In this document: piece after piece, positions 1-22,108 of the stretch
Position numbering within the stretch: the first letter of the stretch is position 1
Layout: each line of letters starts with the position of its first letter
Assembly (NCBI RefSeq): GCF_009914755.1
Contig: NC_060946.1
Direction: 5' to 3' (one strand)
Length of the DNA stretch: 64,000 nt
Origin: the human T2T-CHM13v2.0 reference genome, Homo sapiens
Notes under the pieces: generated by a model
Database searches by the model: none
Seen by the model: the letters and a program-made list of their open reading frames with translations, nothing else
Told to the model about the DNA's origin: nothing
Made by a program: the position numbers and the translations under genes

Positions 1-27
1 GTCTGCCGTGGTCTCCATGAGAGTGCG

Positions 28-362
28 CCACATAAGATTCCCCCATTAAAAGTCATGAATTGAGTGGCTTTTAGTATACCTGTGGTTGTGCACATTCAAA
101 TTTAATTCGCAATTCATTGTAGAACGTCTTATCACTCCCGGCCAGAGAAAAACCCTGTAGACATTAGTCACTCCTCATTCTGTCTCAAACCCTCTCCCTG
201 ACCCTCAGCCCTAGGTAGCAACTACCTAGTGCGATCAATCCCATATGCATAGATTATCATATTGTGGACATTTCCTATAAGCGGAATTACACAATAGGTG
301 AGCTGTTATGACTGACATAACACGTAGCACAATATTTTCAAGATTCGTCCACATTGTAGGCT
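28..362 (-). mobile_element. Old L1M (L1MB-like) 3' UTR fragment; repeated in each unit
   Basis: Resembles the antisense L1MB 3' end as recalled: 'agtggcttttagtata', 'cattagtcactcctcattc', 'ggacatttcctataagcggaattacacaata', 'ttttcaagattcgtccacattgtag'. Boundaries approximate. Confidence 0.7.
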
Positions 363-410
363 TACCCACAGGGGGAAACCATTTTATTGGGGGCTTTTAG
401 TAACACCGGT

Positions 411-530
411 GTTTTCTCCTTCCTTACATCCTTCTTTCCATCCTTCCTTCCTTCCTTCCTTCCTGACTTCCTTCTTTCCTTCCCTCCTTCCTCCTATTTC
501 TCTCTTACTCCTTCTGCCCTCTCTCTTTCC
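411..530 (+). repeat. (TTCC)n / pyrimidine-rich simple repeat, variable in length between units
   Basis: Directly visible; longer at ~6720-6770, 38600, 51920 and 58365, shorter at ~13170 and 19600. Confidence 0.9.
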
Positions 531-718
531 TATGCCTTAGGTGCATCCCACATTCTGCGTTTTTTTGGGGGAAATCCTCGACAGGTGCAGGAAAATTGTG
601 TTATTGTAACTATTTACCGTTATCTCTCTTTCACGGCTCTCCATCAGTTGTGAACATCTATTGGTTTATCCCAAGTCACTAAGCATATTTTCATTAGGTA
701 AACCTGTTTTTCCTTATA

Positions 719-850
719 CAGCTGTTTCTGGAGTATAGGGTCGCATACTCATAAACCCAGTGTAACTCAGAAACGCATCTAATATTCCAGTAAACCCATC
801 ATAACGTTGAAAAATCGTAAATCAAACCATCATAAGTCACGGTTTGTCCG
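719..850. mobile_element. MER47/Tigger5-type non-autonomous DNA transposon remnant; repeated in each unit
   Basis: TA followed by CAG..., two 'taaaccca' sub-repeats, and 'gttgaaaaatcgtaaatcaaaccatcataagtc' match the recalled MER47 termini. Confidence 0.6.
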
Positions 851-1239
851 TGGATATGGGCGTCATCAATTCCATTGTATTCAGTAATGCTGTACACCAT
901 TAACAATGGCAGACTGATTGGGAGTGGATATTGATAGCATTATAAAAGTCAGTTATTAGAGGGATACTTCTTTAACCTGACTGAAGAACTGATCTAATGG
1001 CTTTAGTACAGTGCATGATTATGTGCGATGTTTTGAGACAGAGTAGTACATTTGTGAATGAAATTTTATGGCTTTTTTTTCACTTAGTAGGAACCATTGT
1101 GTGTGGAAAAGTGAGAAAATGGCTTTATGCTGTAGGGTCTGGCATTCATTGTAGATGTAAGCTTATTTTTCTGTGAGCAAATCTTATTCAATAAAATACT
1201 ACTCTTTATACTAAAAAACAAAAACAGTGGTGATGTGTG

Positions 1240-1565
1240 GTCATTACCCTCAGCAAACTTATCCAGGGAAAAGAAAACCAAACGCCACAACTCACTTATA
1301 ATGGGAGCTGAAAAATGAGATCCCATGGACACAGGAAGGGGAACAACACACACTGGGGCCTTCCGGGAGACAGAGCGTTAAGAAAAACAGCTACTGCATG
1401 CTGGGCCTAATACCTAGGTGATGGGTTGACAGGTGCAGCAAACCACCATGGCACACGTTAACCTTAGTAACAAATCTGCACATCCTGCACATATACCCCA
1501 GAACTTAGGAACGAAACGAAACAAAAGACAACGAAAAAGCAACAGCAAAACGCTAAAGGCAAAAT
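1240..1565 (+). mobile_element. L1PA (approximately L1PA8-13) 3' end with a decayed poly(A) tail; copies at offsets of about +6301, +12730, +19159, +25447, +31882, +38175, +45198, +51495, +57939
   Basis: 'ctcagcaaact...catggacacaggaaggggaacaacacacactggggcc...taatacctaggtgatgggttgacaggtgcagcaaaccaccatggcacacg...ctgcacatcctgcacat..ccccagaactta' followed by an A-rich tract. Confidence 0.9.
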
Positions 1566-1739
1566 AGAGTTTCAAACTGAGAAAGTGACAGACCAACGTC
1601 TGGTTCAAATCATGGTTCTCAACCCAGGTGCCATAAGGTCGGGATAAAGGATGTGGTTACATATTTTCAATAAGACATGCAGCAAATGACCAGAATGATT
1701 ATTCTCAACATATGTGTGTCTTCTAATTCAATGGTGACG

Positions 1740-2175
1740 CTATCTACCGGGACATAGCATTAGATTCCAAAGGGCCGAGTCCCGCCAGACAGGCCTCCCA
1801 CACTAATAACAATGGGAAGCCCTACGTTGCTTTACCTGTGCTTCTCAGCCACTGGCTATAAATCAGGTTGCCACCACTCCCAGATTTAGTTGCATTCATT
1901 TGCTGGAAGAGCTCACAGCACGCAGGGAAACACTTACATTTGCCGTTGTATTTTAGCGGACATTGCACAAAGTTCAGAAAAAAATGTGGGGCCCGGCATG
2001 TGGGGAGGGGCGCACTACCTTCCAGGAAGTGCTATCCAGAAGCTCTCTGAACCCAGTCCTTTTGGGTTTTGATGGAGACCTCATTCTATAGGCATGATGG
2101 GTTAAACCATAGGCTATTGGTGATCAACTCCACCTGGGGCTCTCCACCCTCCCTGGAAATTGGGGTTGAGGCTTT
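1740..2175 (-). mobile_element. MER21-family LTR fragment; repeated in each unit
   Basis: 'ggctataaat', 'gctcacagcacgcagggaaacacttac', 'gaagctctctgaacccagtccttttgggtttt.atggag', 'taggcatgat' and 'attggtgatcaactc' match the recalled antisense MER21 consensus. Boundaries approximate. Confidence 0.72.
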
Positions 2176-2253
2176 GCCATCCTCAGTCTGACTAAAAGAA
2201 TTTACCCAAACGGAATTTTAAAACAGATGAGCATAACTGGAATCTTAATTAGA

Positions 2254-2264
2254 TGATTGGATTA
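2254..2264 (-). promoter_or_regulatory. DUX4-type double-homeodomain motif TAATCCAATCA, 871 bp upstream of the ATG in every unit
   Basis: TGATTGGATTA on the + strand is TAATCCAATCA on the - strand, matching the TAAYBBAATCA consensus. An adjacent TAATTAGATGA is a partial second site. Confidence 0.55.
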
Positions 2265-2726
2265 TCTGGAGCCACACCTTGATATTCCTAACCCGAGCAC
2301 CCTCATCCAACGAATGCTCCACCCAACTGGCTCCCAAGTCTCTACGTGGTTCCAGAGCAAAAGGATGTTGATACAACGCATATCTCCACCTTTTCTTCAA
2401 AGTCTTTTCGCTTACACGGAAAGACTTCTTCAACTGCCATGCATCAGGGTCAGGGGATTGTCTTGTTATAACACAGATCTGCGGATCTCCGGCGTTTGAC
2501 TGTGGCAAGGATGCTGCTGGTGTCAAAACCACAACGTGGGAACCACAGAACCACTAGTGGGTTTTCAGTGTTTCAGTGCATACAATTCCTAATATATCTG
2601 GCCAAGAAAACTTGTAAGTTCTTAGATTGTCCCAAAGGTGGCGCATGAAATCAAAGCAGGAGAACAGTTTCCTACGAGGTGTAGCCTGGGAAAGTTGGGG
2701 GTGACTGATGGAAAGGAGGAGTGAAG

Positions 2727-2797
2727 CTCCGCCCTTTCCGCTGCTAGGCTGCGCCCGAGGCTATTTAAACCCACCCTGGCTGGCCTGTACTCAGATC
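2727..2797 (+). promoter_or_regulatory. Pol II core promoter: GC box, TATA box and Inr; repeated in each unit
   Basis: CTCCGCCC at 2727-2734, TATTTAAA at 2762-2769 and TCAGATC (YYANWYY) at 2791-2797. The Inr A at 2793 is 31 nt after the TATA start. The region is locally CpG-rich. Confidence 0.65.
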
Positions 2798-2917
2798 TTC
2801 GCGGAGCGGATCAGCGGCCGGAGCGTTTGGCGGACTCTGCGTGGACTTGGAGCTCACAGCGTCTTGCGACTTGGAAGCGGATTCAGAGGACAGGACAGAA
2901 CACTTGGGCAAGTGAAT

Positions 2918-2918
2918 C

Positions 2919-2949
<31 letters not shown>

Positions 2950-3063
2950 CATTGGTTGGTTGATTTCCATTTTCTTAAGGGGCACATACCTCACACCGCA
3001 CACACACAAACACACACACGCACACACACACGCACACGCACACGCACACACACGCACACACAC
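2918..3063 (+). repeat. (TCTG)n at ~2918-2948 and compound (CA)n/(CACG)n at ~2992-3063
   Basis: Directly visible between the promoter and the ATG in every unit. Confidence 0.92.
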
Positions 3064-3124
3064 TCCTTCCTTCTGCGAGTTAGAACATTAGTAGGGGCCC
3101 CTGGGAGCTGCAGGTTTCCTAATC

Positions 3125-6103
3125 ATGTCTGCACCTAAGAACGGTAGGGTCTTGTCTGGCTCTTCTTATGAACGGTCCCCCAGCCCGGACTCCCCAAGGT
3201 CCATGCGAACCTCACCCAGCTTCCCCCTCTCCCCTCTCAGAAACTCAGGCTTAAGGGGAAGCTCCTCACCAGGGATCCGGAGCTACCATTCACCATCCCC
3301 TAGGGCTTCACCACACTCACCTCTGTCATCACCAGAATCCCACAAGCTCCCATTTCCCTGTCCTCACCGTGATGGGCAATCAATGAAGCCATTGGGCTCT
3401 CCCGTGTCCTCCTCTGAGGATTCCTCAGAGTCCCCACGTTCATCAATAATATACCACATGTTCTTACTGCCATCACCCAGCAGCTCACCCCAGGCTCTCG
3501 GGGGGTCTCCCGTGTCTCCCAGCTACTCTCCAAACAACCCCAGATTTCAGCTGCAGTCAGCCCCCCACACCCAGGAATCACCTACAAACTCACGAGCCTC
3601 ACTTTGCTCCACCCCTGCGTCTTTCATCTCTTCACCCCAAGGCCTCAGGGACTCTCCTGTGGCTCCCAGTTACTCTCCAGCCATCCCCAGGTTCCTGCGG
3701 GAGTCAGCCCCATGCGCCCAGGAGTCCCCCAGAGACTCACAGGTCTCGGGAGATTATGAGCGGTCCCCCAGCCCTGACTCCTCAAGATTCATGCCTGCCT
3801 CACCCAGCTTCTCCCTCTCCCCTCCCAGAAACTCAGACCCAAGGGGCAGCTCCTCACCAGGGATGTGGAAGTCCTCTACATCATCCCGCAGGGCTTCACC
3901 ACTCTCACATCCGTCATCAACAGAATTCCACAACTTTACGTTTCCCATTCCTAACCAAGCAGGACAGTCACTCATGTCATTGTGTTCTCCCGTGACCTCC
4001 TCTGGAGATTCTTCACAGTCACCTCATTCATCAATAATATACCATATGTTCTTACTGCCATCATCCAGCAGCTCACCCCCAGCCACCCATGACTCTCCTG
4101 TCTGTCCCAGCTACTCTCCAACTACGCCCAGATTTCAGCGGGAGTCTGTACCCCACACCCCAGAAACACCTACAAACTCACAGACCTCAGTGAGATCCTC
4201 GCCAGTCTCTCTCACGTCTTCACCCCCAGCCCTTACGGACCCTCCAGTCTGTTCCAGCTACTCTCCAACCACGCCCACATTTCAGCGCGGGTCAGTTCCA
4301 GGAACCCAGGGATCACCACCAAGCCCACCGCTTTCACTGAGTTACTCCCCAGTCTCTAGCACGTCTTTATCTCCAACCCTCAGGGACTCGCCTGTCTGTC
4401 CCAGCTACTCTCCAAACACGCCCACACTTCAGCGGGAGTCCGTTGCAGGCACCCAGAAGTCACCACCAAACTCACCAATTTCACTGCGTTATTCCCCAGT
4501 CTCTCTCATGTCTTCACCATCCCTCAGGGACTCTCCCGTCTGTCCCAGCTACTCTCCAACCACGCCCACATTTCAGCTGGAGTCAGTTCCAGGCACCCCG
4601 GAATCACCACCAAACTCACCAATTTCACTCAGTTACTCCCCAGTCTCTAGCACGTCTCTATCTCCAACCCTCAGGGACTCTCCTGTGTGTCCCAGCTACT
4701 CTCCAACCACGCCCACACTTCAGCGGGAGTCAGTTCCAGGCACCCAGGAATCACCACCAAACTCACCAATTTCACTCAATTACTCTCCAGTCTCTCTCGT
4801 GTCTTCACCAGCCCTCAGGGACTCTCCTGTCTGTCCCAGCTACTCTCCAACCACCCCCACATTTCAGCTGGAGTCAGTTCCAGGCACCCCGGAGTCACCA
4901 CCAAACTCAACAGTTTCACTCAGTTACTCCTCGGTCTCTCTCATGTCTTCACCCCCAGCCCTCAGGGACTCTCCTGTGCGTCCCAGCTACTCTCCAACCA
5001 TGCCCAGATTCCAGCGGGAGTCAGTTCCAGGCACCCATGTATCACCACCAAACTCAGCAGTTTCACTGAGTTACTCCCCAGTCTCTCTCATGTCTTCACC
5101 CCCAGACCCCTGGGACTCTCCTGTCTGTCCCAGCTACTCTCCCACCACGCCCAGATTTCAGCGGCAGTCAGCCTCCCACACTCCGGAATCAGATACAGAC
5201 TCACAGACTTCACTGAACTCTTCCCTGGTCTCTCTCAGGTCTTTGCCCTCATCCCACAGGGACTCTTGTGTCTCTTTCAGCTACTCTCAAAACTTCTCTA
5301 GATTCCAGCTGGAGTCAGTTCCAGGCACCCACGATACACCACCGAACTCACGAATTTCACTGACTTACGCCCCAGTCTCCCTCATGTTCTCACCCCCAGC
5401 CCTCAGGGACTCTTCTGGCTCTCTCAGCTACTCTCCAACCATCTCCAGATTTCACCTGGAGTCAGCTTCCCACACCCTGGAATCACCTGCAAATTCACGG
5501 ACCTTACTGCAACCATCCCCCATTTCTTTCACCTCTTCACCCCCTGCCTTCAGGGACTCTCCTGGGTCTCCCAGCTTCTCTCCAGCCTTCCCCAGATTTC
5601 TGCCACAGTCAGCCCCAGGCACCCAGGACAACCCTAGACACTCACAGGCCTCACCAGACTATCTCCCTATGACCTGTACCTATACAGGGATGGCTCCCAC
5701 GCATCCCTCAGTGACCCCAAACCCATCTCCACTTACACTCAGGCACTCCCAGGGCCTGACAGCTACTCCCCGTTATTGTCCTTCAGTTCGAAGCCCTGGC
5801 CAATCTACTAGCCCACATGACGCAGTTACCTGGCCATTTCTCCACGGTTCCCGGGAGGGCCCCACACCCAGCCGCACAAGAGCCCCTCCTGCATTCCGTC
5901 CTCACACGCAGGCCTGTCCATCTACTTGCTACTGTCACACTCTTGCCAGCAGAAGAGGCCCCTGTAATGGCCGATATCACCACCCAGGCTATCCTCACCC
6001 CACAGCTGTGCAGCGGGACCCCCCTGCTGGCCCACGTGGCTGCCACAGCCCATGCTGGCACGACGCTCCAGCAGGTCGGTGTCCCTGCGGACCAAACTAC
6101 TGA
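3125..6103 (+). CDS. Copy 1: Ser/Pro/Thr-rich, RPB1-CTD-like repeat protein, 992 aa (putative)
   Basis: Uninterrupted 2979-nt ORF; ATG has A at -3; TATA/Inr upstream; 16 YSP motifs, 6 of them YSPTTP; ends CGPNY*. Confidence 0.62.
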   Translation: MSAPKNGRVLSGSSYERSPSPDSPRSMRTSPSFPLSPLRNSGLRGSSSPGIRSYHSPSPRASPHSPLSSPESHKLPFPCPHRDGQSMKPLGSPVSSSEDSSESPRSSIIYHMFLLPSPSSSPQALGGSPVSPSYSPNNPRFQLQSAPHTQESPTNSRASLCSTPASFISSPQGLRDSPVAPSYSPAIPRFLRESAPCAQESPRDSQVSGDYERSPSPDSSRFMPASPSFSLSPPRNSDPRGSSSPGMWKSSTSSRRASPLSHPSSTEFHNFTFPIPNQAGQSLMSLCSPVTSSGDSSQSPHSSIIYHMFLLPSSSSSPPATHDSPVCPSYSPTTPRFQRESVPHTPETPTNSQTSVRSSPVSLTSSPPALTDPPVCSSYSPTTPTFQRGSVPGTQGSPPSPPLSLSYSPVSSTSLSPTLRDSPVCPSYSPNTPTLQRESVAGTQKSPPNSPISLRYSPVSLMSSPSLRDSPVCPSYSPTTPTFQLESVPGTPESPPNSPISLSYSPVSSTSLSPTLRDSPVCPSYSPTTPTLQRESVPGTQESPPNSPISLNYSPVSLVSSPALRDSPVCPSYSPTTPTFQLESVPGTPESPPNSTVSLSYSSVSLMSSPPALRDSPVRPSYSPTMPRFQRESVPGTHVSPPNSAVSLSYSPVSLMSSPPDPWDSPVCPSYSPTTPRFQRQSASHTPESDTDSQTSLNSSLVSLRSLPSSHRDSCVSFSYSQNFSRFQLESVPGTHDTPPNSRISLTYAPVSLMFSPPALRDSSGSLSYSPTISRFHLESASHTLESPANSRTLLQPSPISFTSSPPAFRDSPGSPSFSPAFPRFLPQSAPGTQDNPRHSQASPDYLPMTCTYTGMAPTHPSVTPNPSPLTLRHSQGLTATPRYCPSVRSPGQSTSPHDAVTWPFLHGSREGPTPSRTRAPPAFRPHTQACPSTCYCHTLASRRGPCNGRYHHPGYPHPTAVQRDPPAGPRGCHSPCWHDAPAGRCPCGPNY
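4091..5700 (+). repeat. 147-bp satellite monomer array (ACRO1-like) inside the ORF; present in every unit
   Basis: Monomer starts (GAC of the DSPV-type motif) at 4091, 4238, 4385, 4529, 4676, 4820, 4967, 5114, 5261, 5408 and 5555, spaced 147 or 144 bp. Two further monomers lie at ~3503 and 3650. Confidence 0.9.
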
Positions 6104-6332
6104 TGACATGTCTAGCGTGACCCTCCTTCCTGGCAGTGACACTGTTGATGTGAACCCCAATTTCACATCTGTCATTTGTAAATAGGACCATTTTCCCTTT
6201 TCGCTCTCCCTTCCATTCACAGGGCTTTTCATTCTCTCTGTTACTGCCTCCGTTTCAGATATTTACTCACCTTTTTCTCTCTCACTATGTCTGCCGTGGT
6301 CTCCATGAGAGTGCGCCACATAAGATTCCCCC

Positions 6333-6338
6333 ATTAAA
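6333..6338 (+). terminator. Candidate polyadenylation signal ATTAAA, ~230 nt after the stop codon (equivalent site at 45-50)
   Basis: First A(A/T)TAAA hexamer downstream of the ORF, followed by GT/T-rich sequence (gagtggcttttag...tgtggttgtg). Confidence 0.45.
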
Positions 6339-9219
6339 AGTCATGAATTGAGTGGCTTTTAGTATACCTGTGGTTGTGCACATTCAAATTTAATTCGCAA
6401 TTCATTGTAGAACGTCTTATCACTCCCGACCAGAGAAAAACCCTGTAGACATTAGTCACTCCTCATTCTGTCTCAAACCCTCTCCCTGACCCGCAGCCCT
6501 AGGTAGCAACTACCTAGTGCGATCAATCCCATATGCATAGATTACCATATTGTGGACATTTCCTATAAGCGGAATTGCACAATAGGGGAGCTGTTATGAC
6601 TGACATAACACGTAGCACAATATTTTCAAGATTCGTACACATTGTAGGCTTACCCACAGGGGGAAACCATTTTTTTGGGGGCTTTTAGTAACACCGGTGT
6701 TTTCTCCTTCCTTACGTCGTTCTTTCCTTCCTTCCTTCCTTCCTTCCTTCCTTCCTTCCTTCCTTCCTGACTTCCTTCTTTCCTTCCCTCCTTTCTCCTA
6801 TTTCTCTCTTACTCCTTCTGCCCTCTCTCTTTCCTATGCCTTAGGTGCATCCCACATTCTGCATTTTTTGGGGAAATCCTCGACAGGTGCAGGAAAATTG
6901 TGTTATTGTAACTATTTACCGTTATCTCTCTTTCACGGCTCTCCATCAGTTGTGAACATCTATTGGTTTATCCCAAGTCACTAAGCATATTTTCATTAGG
7001 TAAACCTGTTTTTCCTTATACAGCTGTTTCTGGAGTATAGGGTCGCATACTCATAAACCCAGTGTAACTCAGAAACGCATCTAATATTCCAGTAAACCCA
7101 TCATAACGTTGAAAAATCGTAAATCAAACCATCATAAGTCACGGTTTGTCCGTGGATATGGGCGTCATCAATTCCATTGTATTCAGTAATGCTGTACACC
7201 ATTAACAATGGCAGACTGATTGGGAGTGGATATTGATAGCATTATAAAAGTCAGTTATTAGAGGGATACTTCTTTAACCTGACTGAAGAACTGATCTAAT
7301 GGCTTTAGTACAGTGCATGATTATGTGCGATGTTTTGAGACAGAGTAGTACATTTGTGAATGAAATTTTATGGCTTTTTTTTCACTTAGTAGGAACCATT
7401 GTGTGTGGAAAAGTGAGAAAATGGCTTTCTGCTGTAGGGTCTGGCATTCATTGTAGATGTAAGCTTATTTTTCTGTGAGCAAATCTTATTCAATAAAATA
7501 CTACTCTTTATACTAAAAAACAAAAACAGTGGTGATGTGTGGTCATTATCCTCAACAAACTTATCCAGGGAAAGAAAACCAAACGCCACAACTCACTTAT
7601 AATGGGAGCTGAAAAATGAGATCCCATGGACACAGGAAGGGGAACAACACACACTGGGGCCTTCCGGGAGACAGAGCGTTAAGAAAAACAGCTACTGCAT
7701 GCTGGGCTTAATACCTAGGTGATGGGTTGACAGGTGCAGCAAACCACCATGGCACACGTTTACCTTAGTAACAAATCTGCACATCCTGCACATATACCCC
7801 AGAACTTAGGAACGAAATGAAACAAAAGACAACGAAAAAGCAACAGCAAAACGCTAAAGGCAAAATAAAGTTTCAAACTGAGAAAGTGACAGACCAACGT
7901 CTGGTTCAAATCATGGTTCTCAACCCAGGTGCCATAAGGTCGGGATAAAGGATGTGATTACATATTGTCAATAAGACATGCAGCAAATGACCAGAATGAT
8001 TATTCTCAACATATATGTGTCTTCTAATTCAATGGTGACGCTATGTACCGGGACATAGCATTAGATTCCAAAGGGCCGAGTCCCGCCAGACAGGCCTCCC
8101 ACACTAATAACAATGGGAAGCCCTACGTTGCTTTACCTGTGCTTCTCAGCCACTGGCTATAAATCAGGTTGCCACCACTCCCAGATTTAGTTGCATTCAT
8201 TTGCTGGAAGAGCTCACAGCACGCAGGGAAACACTTACATTTGCCGTTGTATTTTAGCGGACATTGCACAAAGTTCAGAAAAAAATGTGGGGCCCGGCAT
8301 ATGGGGAGGGGCGCACTACCTTCCAGGAAGTGCTATCCAGAAGCTCTCTGAACCCAGTCCTTTTGGGTTTTGATGGAGACCTCATTCTATAGGCATGATG
8401 GGTTAAACCATAGGCTATTGGTGATCAACTCCACCTGGGGCTCTCCACCCTCCCTGGAAATTGGGGTTGAGGCTTTGCCATCCTCAGTCTGACTAAAAGA
8501 ATTTACCCAAACGGAATTTTAAAACAGATGAGCATAACTGGAATCTTAATTAGATGATTGGATTATCTGGAGCCACACCTTGATATTCCTAACCCGAGCA
8601 CCCTCATCCAACGAATGCTCCACCCAACTGGCTCCCAAGTCTCTACGTGGTTCCAGAGCAAAAGGATGTTGATACAACGCATATCTCCACCTTTTCTTCA
8701 AAGTCTTTTCGCTTACACGGAAAGACTTCTTCAACTGCCATGCATCAGGGTCAGGGGGAGGTCTTGTTACAACCCAGATCTGCGGATCTCCGGCGTTTGA
8801 CTGTGGCAAGGATGCTGCTGGTGTCAAAACCACAACGTGGGAACCACAGAACCACTAGTGGGTTTTCAGTGTTTCAGTGCATACAATTCCTAATATATCT
8901 GGCCAAGAAAACTTGTAAGTTCTTAGATTGTCCCAAAGGTGGCGCATGAAATCAAAGCAGGAGAACAGTTTCCTACGAGGTGTAGCCTGGGAAAGTTGGG
9001 GGTGACTGATGGAAAGGAGGAGTGAAGCTCCGCCCTTTCCGCTGCTAGGCTGCGCCCGAGGCTATTTAAACCCACCCTGGCTGGCCTGTACTCAGATCTT
9101 CGCGGAGCGGATCAGCGGCCGGAGCGTTTGGCGGACTCTGCGTGGACTTGGAGCTCACAGCGTCTTGCGACTTGGAAGCGGATTCAGAGGACAGGACAGA
9201 ACACTTGGGCAAGTGAATC

Positions 9220-9250
<31 letters not shown>

Positions 9251-9425
9251 CATTGGTTGGTTGATTTCCATTTTCTTAAGGGGCACATACCTCACACCGC
9301 ACACACACAAACACACACACGCACACACACACGCACACGCACACGCACACACACGCACACACACTCCTTCCTTCTGCGAGTTAGAACATTAGTAGGGGCC
9401 CCTGGGAGCTGCAGGTTTCCTAATC

Positions 9426-12400
9426 ATGTCTGCACCTAAGAACGGTAGGGTCTTGTCTGGCTCTTCTTATGAACGGTCCCCCAGCCCGGACTCCCCAAGG
9501 TCCATGCGAACCTCACCCAGCTTCCCCCTCTCCCCTCTCAGAAACTCAGGCTTAAGGGGAAGCTCCTCACCAGGGATCCGGAGCTACCATTCACCATCCC
9601 CTAGGGCTTCACCACACTCACCTCTGTCATCACCAGAATCCCACAAGCTCCCATTTCCCTGTCCTCACCGTGATGGGCAATCAATGAAGCCATTGGGCTC
9701 TCCCGTGTCCTCCTCTGAGGATTCCTCAGAGTCCCCACGTTCATCAATAATATACCACATGTTCTTACTGCCATCACCCAGCAGCTCACCCCAGGCTCTC
9801 GGGGGGTCTCCCGTGTCTCCCAGCTACTCTCCAAACAACCCCAGATTTCAGCTGCAGTCAGCCCCCCACACCCAGGAATCACCTACAAACTCACGAGCCT
9901 CACTTTGCTCCACCCCCGTGTCTTTCATCTCTTCACCCCCAGGCCTCAGGGACTCTCCTGTGGCTCCCAGTTACTCTCCAGCCATCCCCAGGTTCCTGCG
10001 GGAGTCAGCCCCATGCGCCCAGGAGTCCCCCAGAGACTCACAGGTCTCGGGAGATTATGAGCGGTCCCCCAGCCCTGACTCCTCAAGATTCATGCCTGCC
10101 TCACCCAGCTTCTCCCTCTCCCCTCCCAGAAACTCAGACCCAAGGGGCAGCTCCTCACCAGGGATGTGGAAGTCCTCTACATCATCCCGCAGGGCTTCAC
10201 CACTCTCACATCCGTCATCAACAGAATTCCACAACTTTACGTTTCCCTTTTCTAACCAAGCAGGACAGTCACTCATGTCATTGTGTTCTCCCGTGACCTC
10301 CTCTGGAGATTCTTCACAGTCACCTCCTTCATCAATAATATACCACATGTTCTTACTGCCATCATCCAGCAGCTCACCCCCAGCCACCCATGACTCTCCT
10401 GTCTGTCCCAGCTACTCTCCAACTACCCCCAGATTTCAGCGGGAGTCTGTACCCCACACCCCAGAAACACCTACAAACTCACAGACCTCAGTGAGATCCT
10501 CGCCAGTCTCTCTCACGTCTTCACCCCCAGCCCTTACGGACCCTCCAGTCTGTCCCAGCTACTCTCCAACCACGCCCACATTTCAGCGCGGGTCAGTTCC
10601 AGGAACCCAGGGATCACCACCAAGCCCACCGCTTTCACTGAGTTACTCCCCAGTCTCTAGCACGTCTTTATCTCCAACCCTCAGGGACTCGCCTGTCTGT
10701 CCCAGCTACTCTCCAAACACGCCCACACTTCAGCGGGAGTCCGTTGCAGGCACCCAGAAGTCACCACCAAACTCACCAATTTCACTGCGTTACTCCCCAG
10801 TCTCTCTCATGTCTTCACCATCCCTCAGGGACTCTCCCGTCTGTCCCAGCTACTCTCCAACCACGCCCACATTTCAGCTGGAGTCAGTTCCAGGCACTCC
10901 GGAATCACCACCAAACTCACCAATTTCACTCAGTTACTCCTCAGTCTCTAGCACGTCTCTATCTCCAACCCTCAGGGACTCTCCTGTGTGTCCCAGCTAC
11001 TCTCCAACCACGCCCACACTTCAGCGGGAGTCAGTTCCAGGCACCCAGGAATCACCACCAAACTCACCAATTTCACTCAGTTACTCCTCAGTCTCTAGCA
11101 CGTCTTTATCTCCAACCCTCAGGGACTCTCCTGTGTGTCCCAGCTACTCTCCAACCACGCCCACACTTCAGCGGGAGTCAGTTCCAGGCACCCAGGAATC
11201 ACCACCAAACTCACCAATTTCACTCAATTACTCTCCAGTCTCTCTCGTGTCTTCACCAGCCCTCAGGGACTCTCCTGTCTGTCCCAGCTACTCTCCAACC
11301 ACGCCCACATTTCAGCTGGAGTCAGTTCCAGGCACCCCGGAGTCACCACCAAACTCACCGGTTTCACTCAGTTACTCCTCGGTCTCTCTCATGTCTTCAC
11401 CCCCAGCCCTCAGGGACTCTCCTGTGTGTCCCAGCTACTCTCCAACCATGCCCAGATTTCAGCGGGAGTCAGTTCCAGGCACCCATGTATCACCACCAAA
11501 CTCAGCAGTTTCACTGAGTTACTCCCCAGTCTCTCTCATGTCTTCACCCCCAGACCCCTGGGACTCTCCTGTCTGTCCCAGCTACTCTCCCACCACGCCC
11601 AGATTTCAGCGGGAGTCAGCCTCCCACACTCCGGAATCAGATACAGACTCACAGACCTCACTGAACTCCTCCCTGGTCTCTCTCAGGTCTTTGCCCTCAT
11701 CCCACAGGGACTCTTGTGTCTCTTTCAGCTACTCTCAAAACTTCTCTAGATTCCAGCTGGAGTCAGTTCCAGGCACCCACGATACACCACCGAACTCACG
11801 AATTTCACTGACTTACTCCCCAGTCTCCCTCATGTTCTCACCCCCAGCCCTCAGGGACTCTTCTGTCTCTCTCAGCTACTCTCCAACCATCTCCAGATTT
11901 CACCTGGAGTCAGCTTCCCACACCCTGGAATCACCTGCAAACTCACGGACCTTACTGCAACCATCCCCCATTTCTTTCACCTCTTCACCCCCTGCCTTCA
12001 GGGACTCTCCTGGGTCTCCCAGCTTCTCTCCAGCCTTTCCCAGATTTCTGCCACAGTCAGCCCCAGGCACCCAGGACAACCCTAGACACTCACAGGCCTC
12101 ACCAGACTATCTCCCTATGACCTGTACCTATACAGGGATGGCTCCCACGCATAGCTCAGTGACCCCAAACCCATCTCCACTTACACTCAGGCACTCCCAG
12201 GGCCTGACAGCTACTCCCCGTTATTGTCCTTCAGTTCGAAGCCCTGGCCAATCTACTAGCCCACATGACGCAGTTACCTGGCCATTTCTCCACGGTTCCC
12301 AGGAGGGCCCCACACCCAGCCGCACAAGAGCCCCTCCTGCATTCCGTCCTCACACGCAGGCCTGTCCATCTACTTGCTACTGTCACACTCTTGCCAGCAG

Positions 12401-12554
12401 AAGAGGCCCCTGTAATGGCCGATATCACCACCCAGTCTATCCTCACCCCACAGCTGTGCAGCGGGAACCCCCTGCTGGCCCACGTGGCTGCCACAGCCCA
12501 TGCTGGCACGACGCTCCAGCAGGTCGGCGTCCCTGCGGGCCAAACTACCGGTGA
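9426..12554 (+). CDS. Copy 2: CTD-like repeat protein, 1042 aa (one extra 147-bp monomer)
   Basis: Intact ORF, paralog of copy 1, ends CGPNYR*. Confidence 0.62.
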   Translation: MSAPKNGRVLSGSSYERSPSPDSPRSMRTSPSFPLSPLRNSGLRGSSSPGIRSYHSPSPRASPHSPLSSPESHKLPFPCPHRDGQSMKPLGSPVSSSEDSSESPRSSIIYHMFLLPSPSSSPQALGGSPVSPSYSPNNPRFQLQSAPHTQESPTNSRASLCSTPVSFISSPPGLRDSPVAPSYSPAIPRFLRESAPCAQESPRDSQVSGDYERSPSPDSSRFMPASPSFSLSPPRNSDPRGSSSPGMWKSSTSSRRASPLSHPSSTEFHNFTFPFSNQAGQSLMSLCSPVTSSGDSSQSPPSSIIYHMFLLPSSSSSPPATHDSPVCPSYSPTTPRFQRESVPHTPETPTNSQTSVRSSPVSLTSSPPALTDPPVCPSYSPTTPTFQRGSVPGTQGSPPSPPLSLSYSPVSSTSLSPTLRDSPVCPSYSPNTPTLQRESVAGTQKSPPNSPISLRYSPVSLMSSPSLRDSPVCPSYSPTTPTFQLESVPGTPESPPNSPISLSYSSVSSTSLSPTLRDSPVCPSYSPTTPTLQRESVPGTQESPPNSPISLSYSSVSSTSLSPTLRDSPVCPSYSPTTPTLQRESVPGTQESPPNSPISLNYSPVSLVSSPALRDSPVCPSYSPTTPTFQLESVPGTPESPPNSPVSLSYSSVSLMSSPPALRDSPVCPSYSPTMPRFQRESVPGTHVSPPNSAVSLSYSPVSLMSSPPDPWDSPVCPSYSPTTPRFQRESASHTPESDTDSQTSLNSSLVSLRSLPSSHRDSCVSFSYSQNFSRFQLESVPGTHDTPPNSRISLTYSPVSLMFSPPALRDSSVSLSYSPTISRFHLESASHTLESPANSRTLLQPSPISFTSSPPAFRDSPGSPSFSPAFPRFLPQSAPGTQDNPRHSQASPDYLPMTCTYTGMAPTHSSVTPNPSPLTLRHSQGLTATPRYCPSVRSPGQSTSPHDAVTWPFLHGSQEGPTPSRTRAPPAFRPHTQACPSTCYCHTLASRRGPCNGRYHHPVYPHPTAVQREPPAGPRGCHSPCWHDAPAGRRPCGPNYR

Positions 12555-15500
12555 CATGTCTAGCGTGACCCTCCTTCCTGGCAGTGACACTGTTGATGTG
12601 AACCCCAATTTCACATCTGTCATTTGTAAATAGGACCATTTTCCCTTTTCGCTCTCCCTTCCATTCACAGGGCTTTTCATTCTCTCTGTTACTGCCTCCG
12701 TTTCAGATATTTACTCACCTTTTTCTCTCTCACTATGTCTGCCGTGGTCTCCATGAGAGTGCGCCACATAAGATTCCCCCATTAAAAGTCATGAATTGAG
12801 TGGCTTTTAGTATACCTGTGGTTGTGCACATTCAAATTTAATTCGCAATTCATTGTAGAACGTCTTATCACTCCCGGCCAGAGAAAAACCCTGTAGACAT
12901 TAGTCACTCCTCATTCTGTCTCAAACCCTCTCCCTGACCCGCAGCCCTAGGTAGCAACTACCTAGTGCGATCAATCCCATATGCATAGATTACCATATTG
13001 TGGACATTTCCTATAAGCGGAATTACACAATAGGTGAGCTGTTATGACTGACATAACACGTAGCACAATATTTTCAAGATTCGTCCACATTGTAGGCTTA
13101 CCCACAGGGGGAAACCATTTTATTGGGGGCTTTTAGTAACACCGGTGTTTTCTCCTTCCTTACGTCCTTCTTTCCTTCCTTCCTTCCTTCCTTCCTGACT
13201 TCCTTCTTTCCTTCCCTCCTTCCTCCTATTTCTCTCTAACTCCTTCTGCCCTCTCTCTTTCCTATGCCTTAGGTGCATCCCACATTCTGCGTTTTTTTGG
13301 GGAAATCCTCGACAGGTGCAGGAAAATTGTGTTATTGTAACTATTTACCGTTATCTCTCTTTCACGGCTCTCCATCAGTTGTGAACATCTATTGGTTTAT
13401 CCCAAGTCACTAAGCATATTTTCATTAGGTAAACCTGTTTTTCCTTATACAGCTGTTTCTGGAGTATAGGGTCGCATACTCATAAACCCAGTGTAACTCA
13501 GAAACGCATCTAATATTCCAGTAAACCCATCATAACGTTGAAAAATCGTAAATCAAACCATCATAAGTCACGGTTTGTCCGTGGATATGGGCGTCATCAA
13601 TTCCATTGTATTCAGTAATGCTGTACACCATTAACAATGGCAGACTGATTGGGAGTGGATATTGATAGCATTATAAAAGTCAGTTATTAGAGGGATACTT
13701 CTTTAACCTGACTGAAGAACTGATCTAATGGCTTTAGTACAGTGCATGATTATGTGCGATGTTTTGAGACAGAGTAGTACATCTGTGAATGAAATTTTAT
13801 GGCTTTTTTTTCACTTAGTAGGAACCATTGTGTGTGGAAAAGTGAGAAAATGGCTTTATGCTGTAGGGTCTGGCATTCATTGTAGATGTAAGCTGATTTT
13901 TCTGTGAGCAAATCTTATTCAATAAAATACTACTCTTTATACTAAAAAACAAAAACAGTGGTGATGTGTGGTCATTATCCTCAGCAAACTTATCCGGGGA
14001 AAGAAAACCAAACGCCACAACTCACTTATAATGGGAGCTGAAAAATGAGATCCCATGGACACAGGAAGGGGAAGAACACACACTGAGGCCTTCCGGGAGA
14101 CAGAGCGTTAAGAAAAACAGCTACTGCATGCTGGGCCTAATACCTAGGTGATGGGTTGACAGGTGCAGCAAACCACCATGGCACACGTTTACCTTAGTAA
14201 CAAATCTGCACATCCTGCACATATACCCCAGAACTTAGGAACGAAACGAAACAAAAGACAACGAAAAAACAATAGCAAAACGCTAAAGGCAAAATAAAGT
14301 TTCAAACTGAGAAAGTGACAGACCAACGTCTGGTTCAAATCATGGTTCTCAACCCAGGTGCCATAAGGTCGGGATAAAGGATGTGATTACATATTGTCAA
14401 TAAGACATGCAGCAAATGACCAGAATGATTATTCTCAACATATGTGTGTCTTCTAATTCAATGGTGACGCTATCTACCGGGACATAGCATTAGATTCCAA
14501 AGGGCCGAGTCCCGCCAGACAGGCCTCCCACACTAATAACAATGGGAAGCCCTACGTTGCTTTACCTGTGCTTCTCAGCCACTGGCTATAAATCAGGTTG
14601 CCACCACTCCCAGATTTAGTTGCATTCATTTGCTGGAAGAGCTCACAGCACGCAGGGAAACACTTACATCTGCCGTTGTATTTTAGCGGACATTGCACAA
14701 AGTTCAGAAATAAATGTGGGGCCCGGCACGTGGGGAGGGGCGCACTACCTTCCAGGAAGTGTTATCCGGAAGCTCTCTGAACCCAGTCCTTTTGGGTTTT
14801 GATGGAGACCTCATTCTATAGGCATGATGGGTTAAACCATAGGCTATTGGTGATCAACTCCACCTGGGGCTCTCCACCCTCCCTGGAAATTGGGGTTGAG
14901 GTTTTGCCATTCTCAGTCTGACTAAAAGAATTTACCCAAACGGAATTTTAAAACAGATGAGCATAACTGGAATCTTAATTAGATGATTGGATTATCTGGA
15001 GCCACACCTTGATATTCCTAACCCGAGCACCCTCATCCAACGAATGCTCCACCCAACTGGCTCCCAAGTCTCTACGTGGTTCCAGAGCAAAAGGATGTTG
15101 ATACAACGCATATCTCCACCTTTTCTTCAAAGTCTTTTCGCTTACACGGAAAGACTTCTTCAACTGCCATGCATCAGGGTCAGGGGGAGGTCTTGTTACA
15201 ACCCAGATCTGCGGATCTCCGGCGTTTGACTGTGGCAAGGATGCTGCTGGTGTCAAAACCACAACGTGGGAACCACAGAACCACTAGTGGGTTTTCAGTG
15301 TTTCAGTGCATACAATTCCTAATATTTCTGGCCAAGAAAACTTGTAAGTTCTTAGATTGTCCCAAAGGTGGCGCATGAAATCAAAGCAGGAGAACAGTTT
15401 CCTACGAGGTGTAGCCTGGGAAAGTTGGGGGTGACTGATGGAAAGGAGGAGTGAAGCTCCGCCCTTTCCGCTGCTAGGCTGCGCCCGAGGCTATTTAAAC

Positions 15501-15648: not shown

Positions 15649-15679
<31 letters not shown>

Positions 15680-22077: not shown

Positions 22078-22108
<31 letters not shown>

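What the first reader, a model, noticed from the sequence alone, without database searches (positions are those of the whole stretch)
4091..5700. The 147-bp monomer is 7 x 21 bp, encoding seven degenerate RNA Pol II CTD heptads that align with RPB1 repeats 1-5
Seen: the 49-aa monomer parses in register as DSPVCPS|YSPTTPT|FQLESVP|GTPESPP|NSPISLS|YSPVSLM|SSPPALR (consensus across monomers). Up to six of the seven heptads have S/T-P at positions 2-3. Established: the mammalian RPB1 CTD begins ...SPS|YSPTSPA|YEPRSPGG|YTPQSPS|YSPTSPS|YSPTSPS. The two non-consensus RPB1 repeats (YEPRSPGG, YTPQSPS) fall where the monomer has FQ(L/R)ESVP and GTPESPP. Inference: the satellite may descend from a POLR2A CTD-coding fragment. 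The product could be a polymerase-free CTD mimic, acting as a substrate or decoy for CDK7/9/12, Pin1, CTD phosphatases and CID/WW/SRI readers, or as a condensate component.
Basis: partly seen in the sequence, partly recalled or inferred. Interest (0 to 1): 0.9.

Follow-up and report, generated by a model that had tools for sequence, protein, structure and literature searches.

The report
ACRO1 satellite reads like Pol II tail
This is the known human ACRO1 satellite, whose published likeness to the tail of RNA polymerase II is real, and it sits inside a long unbroken reading frame repeated in every 6.4-kb unit, so a protein product is possible but unproven.

Summary
The 147-bp array at 4073-5647 is the ACRO1 satellite inside one unit of the ~6.4-kb ACRO/ACRE macrosatellite of distal chr22p. 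The monomer is seven 21-bp sub-repeats. In one frame it reads as S/P-rich heptads that resemble the POLR2A CTD in phase, above all shuffles, at protein level and DNA level.

This likeness, and the idea of descent from CTD mRNA, were published by Boots et al. 2020 (PMC7714431). The likeness is to the generic heptad. Placement on RPB1 repeats 1-5 wins by 2 BLOSUM points and ranks 145 of 308 at DNA level. No POLR2A flank is shared, and Pfam's CTD model does not see the translation.

It is intact in 8 of 9 complete units here and in 110 of 121 scored genome copies. A full-length marmoset counterpart exists. Substitutions look neutral in recent copies, and CTD-like motifs are not conserved in marmoset. 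A CTD-mimic protein is therefore possible but unsupported.

The parts
1..64000 (+). Ten tandem units of the ACRO/ACRE macrosatellite, with periods of 6288-6885 bp
   Evidence: Anchor spacing. TRF shows the same set of internal repeats ten times.
2254..2264 (-). TAATCCAATCA, a match to the DUX4 binding consensus (the motif is recalled, not from a tool). It occurs once per unit.
   Evidence: 10 matches in the window against 0.29 expected; effectively one site times ten units. Present in 30 of 30 distal loci on chr22, chr15 and chr21.
2762..2769 (+). TATA-like box TATTTAAA inside a short CpG-richer stretch (2650-2920, CpG o/e 0.73). Promoter function is inferred, not shown.
   Evidence: The 61-mer around it is exact in all ten units. 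Present in 30 of 30 loci.
3125..6103 (+). ATG-to-stop open frame of 992 codons plus TGA. It is the frame that reads as CTD-like heptads. The stop-to-stop frame starts at 3095.
   Evidence: 0 stops against 14 and 17 in the other + frames. 14.6-22.1 stops expected from one-step paths and 34.0 from position-specific base use, with 0 of 5000 shuffles stop-free. 3125 is the first ATG after the TATA-like box.
3167..4342 (+). Old internal duplication of 588 bp (4 x 147): 3167-3754 against 3755-4342. 76.2% identical, with no internal gap.
   Evidence: dN/dS is 0.62 in the open frame, against 1.25 and 0.88 in the other two frames.
3507..3747 (+). Short ACRO1 block of about 1.6 monomers
   Evidence: nhmmer hits at 3507-3651 and 3654-3747. 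Matches the '256 bp array' of Boots et al..
4091..5647 (+). Long ACRO1 array of 10.6 monomers of 147 bp (two are 144 bp), each made of seven 21-bp sub-repeats
5648..6100 (+). Non-satellite C-terminal part of the frame (151 codons), rich in Cys and His. No Pfam or PDB relative found.
   Evidence: The last 166 aligned residues of the frame are 76.5% identical to the marmoset protein.
6333..6338 (+). ATTAAA, a possible poly(A) signal 230 bp after the stop. There is no AATAAA between 2701 and 6500.
   Evidence: Function not tested.

Best explanation
The feature is the ACRO1 satellite block of one unit of the primate ACRO/ACRE macrosatellite. This is a ~6.4-kb unit repeated at the distal end of chr22p and in hundreds of copies on chr3, 13, 14, 15, 21 and 22.

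Its 147-bp monomer is a higher-order unit of seven diverged 21-bp sub-repeats. Read in one frame these give S/P-rich heptads that resemble the RNA polymerase II CTD, in phase, at both protein and DNA level. That is the published observation.

The same frame is not just an in-silico reading. It is a ~1000-codon ATG-to-stop frame that runs through both ACRO1 blocks and about 1.2 kb of non-satellite S/P-rich sequence. It has been kept free of stops and is full-length in a New World monkey.

Each unit also carries a DUX4-type site, a TATA-like box, the frame's ATG as the first ATG after that box, and an ATTAAA.

Most likely, therefore, the ACRO unit is, or recently was, a gene-like transcription unit for a fast-evolving, disordered S/P-rich polypeptide. 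It is transcribed in a DUX4-driven burst around the 4-cell stage (RNA evidence from the literature only).

The CTD likeness comes from the make-up of the ancestral 21-bp unit. This could be kinship with a CTD-type heptad code, or coincidence. It is not a maintained CTD-mimic function. The only experimentally shown activity of ACRO1 is at RNA level: the sense RNA binds Pol II and blocks elongation in cis (Boots et al. 2020).

Shown here: the repeat anatomy, the statistics of the likeness, the open frame and its spread. Inferred: the promoter, translation, and any function of the product.
For: Identity as ACRO1/ACRE:
- 147-bp monomer, arrays of about 1.6 kb and 241 bp in a ~6.4-kb unit, matching the description in PMC7714431 and the '6 kb composite' of preprint 10.64898/2025.12.22.696095.
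- 23 of 49 identical residues to the CTD are reproduced.

Likeness to the CTD:
- All 13 PDB sequences with E <= 10 are RPB1. The best is S. pombe at 5e-07; mammalian chains score 0.031-0.057.

Open frame:
- 0 stops against 14 and 17 in the other frames.
- 14.6-22.1 stops expected from one-step paths and 34.0 from position-specific base use.
- The longest frame in 1000 Markov simulations is 480 codons, against 1002 observed.
- Non-satellite parts alone: 0 observed against 5.7 + 5.5 + 3.5 expected.
- ATG-to-stop frames of 992-1238 codons in 8 of 9 complete units; the tenth runs off the window while still open.
- 120 of 121 and 148 of 150 scored genome copies have no stop inside the matched part. 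By my count of the table, 110 of 121 have open frames of 955 aa or more.
- All monomer length variants differ by 3 bp: 97 of 147 bp and 20 of 144 bp.

Marmoset protein P0003:
- 832 aa, with the same start and the same C-terminus.
- 71.0% identical over 321 N-terminal residues with one 1-residue gap, and 76.5% over 166 C-terminal residues.

Old internal duplication: dN/dS is 0.62 in this frame, against 1.25 and 0.88 in the others.

Unit signals.

RNA evidence, from passages read in the papers:
- DUX4 activates ACRO1 transcripts (PMC8990217; 10.64898/2025.12.22.696056).
- Expression peaks at the 4-cell stage (PMC6545021).
- ACRO1 is hypomethylated in spermatogonial stem cells and sperm and its expression rises in early embryos (PMC5832720).
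Against: There is no sign of purifying selection on the encoded residues in recent history.
- Pairwise dN/dS among diverged copies is mostly 0.65-1.8 (range 0.18-2.85). Variable sites by codon position are 17/17/13 and 15/12/19.
- Among 126 distinct variants in 30 loci, 36 are synonymous (33.9 expected) and 2 create stops (4.9 expected).
- Among 133 monomer variants, 41 are synonymous (37.8 expected). Stop-creating variants are as depleted in frame 2 as in frame 1.
- The frame varies as fast as its flanks: 100 variable states in 2496 bp, against 52 in 1500 bp.

Further points against:
- Human-marmoset identity of 71-77% is about what neutral drift would give. That expectation is my estimate from recalled divergence.
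- The marmoset model reads about 65 residues in another frame of the monomer. It is an automatic gene model whose DNA I could not see.
- 11 of 121 genome copies and 1 of 10 units here are broken.
- Boots et al. could not detect stable ACRO1 transcripts in HeLa, and found that ACRO1 inserts abolish their own transcript.
- No protein evidence of any kind was available.
- RefSeq annotates no gene in this window (hub note).
- The promoter reading rests on motifs only. The DUX4 motif is recalled.
Confidence: 0.6

Rival explanations
1. The satellite descends from a POLR2A CTD-coding fragment (repeats 1-5 and following). Its product is a polymerase-free CTD mimic that acts as substrate or decoy for CTD kinases, phosphatases and readers, or joins Pol II condensates.
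For: - In-phase likeness at protein and DNA level is above every null.
- DNA identity exceeds what the peptide alone would give: 0.501, against 0.43-0.44 +- 0.017 for synonymous redraws (0 of 400 reach it).
- AGY serine codons fall at heptad position 7 as in POLR2A.
- The placement on repeats 1-5 is the top one by BLOSUM.
- The frame is open and widespread.
- The predicted protein has 100 S/T-P sites, and one di-heptad-like stretch per monomer.
- A data source named the marmoset homologue RPB1.
Against: - The margin for repeats 1-5 is 2 BLOSUM points, and the DNA rank is 145 of 308.
- The order of heptads is uninformative.
- No POLR2A linker, tip or 3' UTR is shared: all blastn hits fall inside the heptad stretch.
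- Third-position identity is not significant (63 of 400).
- PF05001 is silent at E <= 10, while the true CTD gives 1.4e-70.
- About 50% nucleotide identity needs roughly 0.8 substitutions per site. That is far more than a primate-specific neutral history allows (inference).
- CTD-like motifs are not conserved: 7 against 1 full motifs and 16 against 5 YSP in human against marmoset.
- S/T-P sites are not preferentially kept: Fisher p = 1.0 and 0.79.
Confidence: 0.1
2. A non-coding satellite whose working product is RNA. The sense ACRO1 RNA is a Pol II-binding aptamer that stalls the polymerase in cis and keeps the arrays silent. The open frame is a relic of an extinct coding exon, or a by-product, and the protein reading has no present role.
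For: - Boots et al. 2020 (passages read): ACRO1 was among the most enriched genomic SELEX classes on Pol II (1029 sense against 1 antisense mappings). Inserts of 1.1-1.4 kb nearly abolished a reporter transcript co-transcriptionally, and the reverse complement did not.
- Neutral-looking substitution pattern in recent copies.
- No gene is annotated in the window (hub note).
- The acrocentric-evolution preprint names only TPTE as protein-coding on human short arms.
Against: - An RNA role does not explain frame-specific avoidance of stops: 0 against 15-34 expected, while the other two frames carry 14 and 17.
- It does not explain why the start and end of the frame are kept in marmoset.
- It does not explain dN/dS of 0.62 in that frame alone for the old duplication.
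- The two readings are not exclusive.
Confidence: 0.3
3. On origin only: the CTD likeness is coincidence. A pyrimidine-rich 21-bp minisatellite unit happened to resemble TAC-TCN-CCN-ACC-TCN-CCC-AGC, and amplification carried that resemblance into every sub-repeat. There is no kinship with POLR2A.
For: - All seven sub-repeats descend from one 21-mer, so the evidence is in effect one 21-mer comparison. Identities to the POLR2A 21-mer consensus are 15, 16, 4, 7, 13, 14 and 13 of 21.
- No shared flanks.
- Third positions are not significantly alike.
- The human genome holds very many 21-bp-period tandem repeats. That is my knowledge, not a count made here. A per-locus chance below 5e-5 is therefore not negligible genome-wide.
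Against: - 0 of 20000 column permutations reach the observed match, even when the best of 42 phases and strands is taken. The best phase and strand is exactly the open frame.
- Placement of serine codon classes agrees with POLR2A (15 of 2000).
- ACRO1 is one of a few dozen named satellite families, not a random minisatellite.
Confidence: 0.4

Closest known systems
ACRO1 satellite / ACRE (ACRO composite) as described by Boots et al. 2020, Transcription 11:217 (PMC7714431)
   Same: - 147-bp unit.
- A long and a roughly 250-bp array inside a ~6-kb higher-order unit.
- Location on acrocentric short arms.
- In-silico translation with 23 of 49 residues identical to the CTD, in heptad register.
- A suggested origin from CTD mRNA.
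   Different: That paper (passages read; 'open reading' occurs 0 times in its text) does not report several things found here:
- the ~1000-codon ATG-to-stop frame;
- its stop avoidance;
- its spread over copies;
- the marmoset counterpart;
- the per-unit promoter-like signals.

Its supplementary figures on primate conservation were not seen.
RNA polymerase II CTD (POLR2A; Pfam PF05001 RNA_pol_Rpb1_R)
   Same: - Heptad period with S/T-P at positions 2-3 and 5-6.
- Tyr-type codon at position 1.
- TCN serines at positions 2 and 5, and AGY at position 7.
- In-phase DNA identity of about 50%.
   Different: - Only about one near-consensus heptad and one di-heptad-like stretch per 49 residues.
- Lag-21 DNA identity is 0.45, against 0.72 in the CTD exon.
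- Not seen by PF05001.
- Not attached to a polymerase body.
- Evolves at a neutral-like rate, whereas the CTD is extremely conserved (the latter is established knowledge).
D4Z4 macrosatellite encoding DUX4, and other macrosatellites with one open frame per unit
   Same: - A kilobase-scale tandem unit on heterochromatic chromosome ends.
- Each unit carries a complete open frame and promoter-like sequence.
- RNA appears at the cleavage stage.
- Primate-specific.
   Different: - DUX4 has recognisable homeodomains and proven protein function.
- The ACRO frame has no known domain, no protein evidence and no residue-level constraint.
- ACRO appears to be a DUX4 target rather than a regulator.
Pol II-binding RNA aptamers (RAPs) that silence transcription in cis
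   Same: The sense strand of this very array is the RNA that was selected on Pol II, and it blocks elongation in reporters.
   Different: Nothing in my calls tests RNA binding. No Rfam family matches the unit.

Membership tests
ACRO1 satellite in the ACRO/ACRE composite | Tandem monomer of 147 bp | tested here: met
   TRF gives period 147, with 10.6-11.6 copies in each of ten arrays. 97 monomers of 147 bp and 20 of 144 bp.
ACRO1 satellite in the ACRO/ACRE composite | A long (1.3-2.4 kb) and a short (~256 bp) array inside a ~6-kb higher-order unit | tested here: met
   Arrays at 4073-5647 and 3507-3747. Unit periods of 6288-6885 bp. Description taken from PMC7714431.
ACRO1 satellite in the ACRO/ACRE composite | Found on acrocentric short arms, at the distal ends of rDNA-bearing arms | tested here: met
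   The window is chr22:124001-188000 (hub note). Copies lie on contigs 13, 14, 15, 21, 22 and 3.
ACRO1 satellite in the ACRO/ACRE composite | Match to the Dfam/Repbase ACRO1 consensus, with L1PA10, MER21B and L1MB8 pieces in the unit | not testable with these tools
   No repeat library was on hand. Indirect support: the published figure of 23 of 49 residues identical to the CTD is reproduced exactly.
Pol II CTD heptad repeat (PF05001) | Scores above the Pfam gathering cut-off for RNA_pol_Rpb1_R | tested here: not met
   No PF05001 hit at E <= 10 for the whole frame, the array alone or the marmoset protein. Control: the human CTD read from the genome gives 1.4e-70 with 49 stretches.
Pol II CTD heptad repeat (PF05001) | Uninterrupted tandem heptads close to YSPTSPS | tested here: not met
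   7 Y[ST]Px[ST]P motifs in 992 residues. Two of the seven heptads (FQLESVP, GTQESPP) match the POLR2A 21-mer at only 4 and 7 of 21 bases.
Pol II CTD heptad repeat (PF05001) | Common descent with POLR2A CTD exons | tested here: inconclusive
   For. Against: no shared flanks, third positions not significant, and divergence too deep for a primate-only history (inference).
Macrosatellite with one gene per unit (D4Z4/DUX4 type) | A complete ATG-to-stop frame in each tandem unit | tested here: met
   8 of 9 complete units carry 992-1238 codons, one is frameshifted, and the tenth runs off the window.
Macrosatellite with one gene per unit (D4Z4/DUX4 type) | The frame is kept open by selection | tested here: inconclusive
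   For: 0 stops against 15-34 expected; the marmoset counterpart; dN/dS of 0.62 for the old duplication. Against: neutral pattern in recent copies.
Macrosatellite with one gene per unit (D4Z4/DUX4 type) | The transcript and the protein are observed | not testable with these tools
   RNA evidence comes from the literature only. No protein data were found in searches.

The most novel reading that the evidence does not exclude
Each ACRO unit is a working, DUX4-responsive gene. Hundreds of copies at the tips of the rDNA-bearing short arms fire together around the 4-cell stage. They make a ~1000-residue disordered S/P-rich protein with about a dozen CTD-like di-heptads and about 100 proline-directed S/T sites. 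This protein acts as a bulk substrate or decoy for CTD kinases, phosphatases or readers, or partitions into Pol II condensates, at embryonic genome activation. The weaker form, that ACRO is a translated macrosatellite gene of any function, I put at about 0.35.
Probability: 0.1. Interest if true: 0.9.

Novelty: already known. Interest (0 to 1): 0.42.

Why it matters
What this check adds is that the CTD-like frame behaves like a real reading frame. It is stop-free far beyond chance. It has an ATG, promoter-like and poly(A)-like signals in every unit. It is intact in most of the hundreds of copies. It is full-length in a New World monkey.

Recent acrocentric surveys still treat human short arms as holding essentially one protein-coding gene, TPTE. 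One preprint calls the ACRO1 array a 'putative protein coding gene' only in passing.

If the frame is translated, ACRO would join D4Z4/DUX4 as a macrosatellite gene of the cleavage-stage programme. It would also be relevant to FSHD, where DUX4 induces ACRO1 RNA. The question is now directly testable with Ribo-seq or proteomics mapped to T2T assemblies.

Tried and rejected
- The Pfam PF05001 search of the whole genome rang nowhere, not even at POLR2A. I set it aside as uninformative and replaced it with PF04990 to locate POLR2A and with an hmmscan control.
- Absence of small indels as evidence for frame selection. The five diverged frames show only monomer-scale gaps, and the 588-bp duplication has none. 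However, the 1500-bp non-frame flank also has none outside microsatellites. I therefore do not count this argument.
- Set 1 gave a consensus of 2495 bases with 3 stops, which is an alignment artefact. I do not use its tallies (31 synonymous, 62 non-synonymous, 1 stop); I use only set 2. The downstream partition of set 2 (507 variable states, many gaps) is spoiled by divergent loci and was also not used.
- Search for a non-satellite ancestor or further paralogues. Only the best 121 of 2045 and 150 of 312 candidates were scored, all of them ACRO units. The copies on chr1, 2, 4 and 19 reported by Boots et al. were not reached.
Whole-unit comparison of diverged subfamilies was therefore not possible.
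- Nothing found: Rfam on the unit, PDB search with the C-terminal 151 residues, and Pfam on the whole frame.
- Paper searches for '6kbHsap' and 'LOC124908428' gave nothing relevant.
- No structure prediction or complex prediction was run.

Full report
WHAT IS THERE

The window is chr22:124001-188000 of T2T-CHM13 (hub note; confirmed as G000:C22). It consists of ten tandem units with periods of 6288-6885 bp. Each unit holds the same set of internal repeats:
- a (TCCT)n, a (TCTG)n and a (CA)n tract;
- a 147-bp array of 10.6 or 11.6 copies.

In the first unit TRF places the array at 4073-5628, with 79% matches. nhmmer with one monomer follows it to 5647. It also finds a short block of about 1.6 monomers at 3507-3747.

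This is the anatomy that Boots et al. 2020 (PMC7714431; abstract and passages read) describe for the ACRO1 satellite: a 147-bp unit, in arrays of 1.3-2.4 kb and 256 bp, within a 6-kb 'ACRE'. Preprint 10.64898/2025.12.22.696095 (passages read) describes the 6-kb 'ACRO' composite, found at the distal ends of rDNA-bearing short arms. No repeat library was on hand, so I could not run the formal match to the Dfam consensus.

CHECK OF THE OBSERVATION

- The window holds 117 full-length monomers: 97 of 147 bp and 20 of 144 bp. From them, 35 distinct sequences give the consensus DSPVCPS|YSPTTPR|FQLESVP|GTQESPP|NSPISLS|YSPVSLM|SSPPALR.
- The 21-bp sub-period is real at DNA level. In the circular consensus, lag 21 is the best of all lags (identity 0.449; all-lag mean 0.279, sd 0.056). 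Lags 63 and 42 are joint second (tied with lag 44) and fourth.
- The mean identity over lags 21, 42 and 63 (0.417) is reached by 0 of 5000 base shuffles and 0 of 5000 codon shuffles. In the raw array, lag 21 is the best lag below 147.
- S/T-P dipeptides number 59 in the array translation, against 32.9 in residue shuffles (0 of 2000 reach 59). Their phase modulo 7 is uneven (1 of 2000).

COMPARISON WITH POLR2A

I took the real sequence from the same genome. Pfam PF04990 located POLR2A on contig 17.

Protein level:
- The monomer consensus scores 102 by Smith-Waterman against the CTD.
- Residue shuffles give 49.1 +- 8.5 (0 of 2000 reach 102). Shuffles within each heptad give 51.0 +- 9.0 (0 of 2000).
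- Shuffles that keep each heptad column give 97.3 +- 3.5 (240 of 2000 reach 102).
- The likeness therefore lies in the heptad skeleton, not in the order of heptads.

DNA level:
- Ungapped in-phase identity averages 0.501 (maximum 0.571). The other 20 phases give 0.23-0.36, and the reverse complement gives 0.15-0.27.
- Local DNA alignment scores 47, against 24.5 +- 3.4 for codon-order shuffles and 22.7 +- 3.3 for base shuffles (0 of 500 each).
- A stricter null keeps the periodicity. It permutes the 21 columns of the ACRO1 sub-repeat profile and takes the best of 21 rotations and both strands. It gives 0.386 +- 0.019 with a maximum of 0.485. 0 of 20000 reach the observed 0.498.
- Holding the peptide fixed and redrawing synonymous codons gives 0.43-0.44 +- 0.017 (0 of 400 reach 0.501). 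The third-position identity alone (0.330) is not exceptional once base use is matched (63 of 400).
- Permuting the actual codons among positions of the same residue gives 0.472 +- 0.010 (15 of 2000). The gain comes mainly from the two AGY serines falling at heptad position 7, where POLR2A uses AGC in 20 of 49 repeats.

Database searches:
- A phmmer search of PDB sequences returns 13 sequences at E <= 10, all RPB1. The best is S. pombe (5e-07, with a very large bias correction). S. cerevisiae scores about 0.002, and mammalian chains 0.031-0.057.
- Pfam's CTD model PF05001 finds nothing at E <= 10 in the frame, the array or the marmoset homologue. It scores the true CTD at 1.4e-70.

THE CLAIM ABOUT REPEATS 1-5

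- There are 308 heptad-registered placements (7 rotations x 44 offsets). It ties with its own rotation for first place.
- The next distinct placement, on repeats 28-35 around YSPSSPR|YTPQSPT|YTPSSPS, scores 98. The mean is 84.4 with sd 6.3.
- The free local alignment picks CTD residues 205-249.
- blastn and tblastn of the whole unit against the last 10 kb of POLR2A hit only the heptad stretch. The best hit is 92 bp at 69.6%. Nothing in the linker, the acidic tip or the 3' UTR matches.

So there is no evidence that a particular piece of POLR2A was the donor.

About 50% identity corresponds to roughly 0.8 substitutions per site. ACRO1 is reported as primate-specific. A simple neutral descent from POLR2A within primates therefore does not fit (inference). 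Because all seven sub-repeats stem from one 21-mer, the statistics amount to one 21-mer comparison. I regard kinship with a CTD-type code and coincidence as both open.

PRIOR PUBLICATION

Boots et al. [quoted passage not shown] My reproduces 23 of 49.

That paper's experimental result is at RNA level:
- ACRO1 sense RNA was among the classes most enriched on Pol II by genomic SELEX.
- ACRO1 inserts of 1.1-1.4 kb nearly abolished a reporter transcript co-transcriptionally.
- The reverse complement did not.

The phrase 'open reading' does not occur in its text. Its supplements were not seen.

Extent:
- The CTD-like frame is open from 3095 to 6100 (1002 codons, stop to stop).
- From the ATG at 3125 it runs 992 codons to a TGA at 6101-6103.
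- It covers the short block, the long array and about 1.2 kb that nhmmer does not recognise as ACRO1.
- No other frame of 300 codons or more exists on either strand of the window.

Stop avoidance:
- The frame has 0 stops. The other two + frames have 14 and 17, and the minus-strand frames have 92, 44 and 46.
- First-order Markov simulations of the span give a longest frame of 238 codons on average and 480 at most in 1000 runs.
- The frame has as many one-step routes to a stop as the others. Scaling by the stops per route seen in frames 2 and 3 predicts 14.6-22.1 stops.
- Position-specific base use predicts 34.0. None of 5000 position-preserving shuffles has fewer than 18.
- The non-satellite parts alone predict 5.7 + 5.5 + 3.5 stops and have none.

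Internal structure:
- The region 3167-4342 is an old internal duplication of 588 bp (4 x 147). The two copies are 76.2% identical, with no internal gap.
- Its dN/dS is 0.62 in this frame, against 1.25 and 0.88 in the other two. Differences by codon position are 38, 45 and 54.

Spread within the window and the genome:
- In the window, 8 of 9 complete units have ATG-to-stop frames of 992-1238 codons. Unit 6 is frameshifted: it is open for 288 codons, and an 893-codon remainder runs in another phase. The tenth unit runs off the window while still open.
- Genome-wide, 120 of 121 scored matches (of 2045 candidates) to the N-terminal 332 residues have no stop inside the match. The same holds for 148 of 150 scored matches (of 312 candidates) to the C-terminal 151 residues. 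The copies lie on contigs 3, 13, 14, 15, 21 and 22, at 93-100% identity.
- By my count of the table, 110 of 121 lie in open frames of 955-1248 residues and 11 in frames of 389-672.

Marmoset counterpart:
- A search of the large protein collection returned an 832-residue Callithrix jacchus protein, P0003. Its source named it 'DNA-directed RNA polymerase II subunit RPB1'.
- It starts with the same MSA.KN... and ends in the same Cys/His-rich tail.
- It is 71.0% identical over 321 N-terminal residues, with a single one-residue gap, and 76.5% identical over 166 C-terminal residues.
- About 65 of its residues read in another frame of the monomer.
- I could not see its DNA, and it is an automatic model.

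EVIDENCE AGAINST A CONSTRAINED PROTEIN

Recent evolution looks neutral.
- Among five diverged human frames (0.6-4.3% apart), pairwise dN/dS in the alignable N- and C-terminal parts is mostly 0.65-1.8 (range 0.18-2.85). Variable sites fall 17/17/13 and 15/12/19 on codon positions.
- In 30 loci covering the last 1953 bp of the frame, 126 distinct variants split into 36 synonymous (33.9 expected), 88 non-synonymous and 2 stop-creating (4.9 expected) (set 2). Set 1 of that call is unusable because its consensus lost a base.
- Among the 133 distinct monomer variants, 41 are synonymous (37.8 +- 4.2 expected). Codon positions carry 44, 40 and 49. Stop-creating variants are depleted in frame 2 as much as in frame 1.
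- The frame varies as fast as the 1500 bp upstream of it: 100 variable states in 2496 bp, against 52 in 1500 bp.
- Human-marmoset identity is close to my rough neutral expectation. That expectation is a recalled divergence, not a computed one.
- Between human and marmoset, S/T before P is kept in 35 of 43 cases, against 74 of 92 for other S/T. P after S/T is kept in 34 of 44, against 34 of 42 for other P (Fisher p = 1.0 and 0.79).
- YSP occurs 16 times in the human protein and 5 times in the marmoset protein. The full Y[ST]Px[ST]P motif occurs 7 times and once.

Whatever keeps the frame open, it is not the CTD-like motif.

SIGNALS AROUND THE FRAME

All are motif-level only.
- Each unit has one TAATCCAATCA on the minus strand at 2254-2264. 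The window has 10 matches against 0.29 expected. The DUX4 consensus used is recalled.
- A TATTTAAA lies at 2762, in a stretch with CpG o/e 0.73.
- There is no ATG between that box and 3125.
- An ATTAAA lies at 6333.
- In 30 distal loci from chr22, chr15 and chr21, the 11-mer and the box are present in 30 of 30. The frame's ATG is the first ATG after the box in 29 of 30.
- A good splice-donor-like AAG|GTGAAT lies at about 2906-2914. AG-type acceptors before the ATG could remove the two microsatellites. This is read by eye and is not tested.

EXPRESSION, FROM THE LITERATURE (PASSAGES READ)

- DUX4 activates transcription from ACRO1 (PMC8990217; 10.64898/2025.12.22.696056).
- ACRO1 RNA peaks at the 4-cell stage in poly(A)-based single-cell data (PMC6545021).
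- ACRO1 is hypomethylated in spermatogonial stem cells and sperm, and is expressed in early embryos (PMC5832720).
- Boots et al. found no stable transcripts in HeLa.
[quoted passage not shown] Its supplementary figure was not seen.
- The acrocentric-evolution preprint names only TPTE as protein-coding on human short arms.
- By the hub's coordinates, the RefSeq model LOC124908428 ends inside the second ACRO unit of this array (compare). I could not see the model. A paper search for its name found nothing.
- My searches found no paper that analyses the ACRO frame.

VERDICT

It is also published.
- The tie to RPB1 repeats 1-5 is not supported.
- Descent from POLR2A remains possible but unproven.
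- The CTD-mimic function has no support from conservation.
- The most useful result of this check is that the CTD-like frame is a long, stop-avoiding, widely intact frame with gene-like signals in every unit. This makes translation of ACRO a concrete and testable question.

Noticed in passing
window 34992-37978 (unit 6) and 41270-45013 (unit 7): Unit 6 carries a frameshift. From its ATG at 35007 the frame is open for only 288 codons, and an 893-codon remainder runs in another phase. Unit 7 is 6885 bp long and its frame has 1238 codons from the ATG. That is 196 codons (588 bp = 4 x 147) more than the common 1042, which suggests a third copy of the 588-bp internal segment.
   Followed up: partly
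window 3167-3754 against 3755-4342: The 'non-satellite' N-terminal part of the frame is itself an old duplication whose period is exactly four ACRO1 monomers (588 bp). The two copies are 76% identical without any gap. The whole frame up to about 5650 therefore keeps a strict 147-bp phase.
   Followed up: yes
window 2254-2264, and every unit (8555, 14984, ... 60193): One perfect DUX4-type 11-mer per unit lies about 500 bp upstream of a TATA-like box. It fits published DUX4 induction of ACRO1 RNA. The motif is recalled, and binding was not tested.
   Followed up: partly
window 2919-2949 and 2999-3063; 417-492: Three microsatellites, (TCTG)n, (CA)n and (TCCT)n. The first two lie between the TATA-like box and the ATG, and are the only sites of small length variation among 30 loci.
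   Followed up: partly
G000 contig 3, about 95.75-95.86 Mb: An ACRO array with mostly intact frames (1003-1101 residues, some of 462) lies on the non-acrocentric chromosome 3 near its centromere. It is 0.6% from a chr22 4.02-Mb copy.
   Followed up: no
P0003: A public database names the marmoset homologue of the ACRO frame 'DNA-directed RNA polymerase II subunit RPB1'. This is an automatic mis-naming caused by the heptad likeness. It has no polymerase domains (0 Pfam families).
   Followed up: yes
P0004, P0005, P0006: Unnamed proteins from other sources (95%, 79% and 34% identical) look like translations of ACRO1 arrays, partly in mixed frames. They may be human or primate DNA in other assemblies, as Breitwieser et al. 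describe for ACRO1 (PMC6581058).
   Followed up: no
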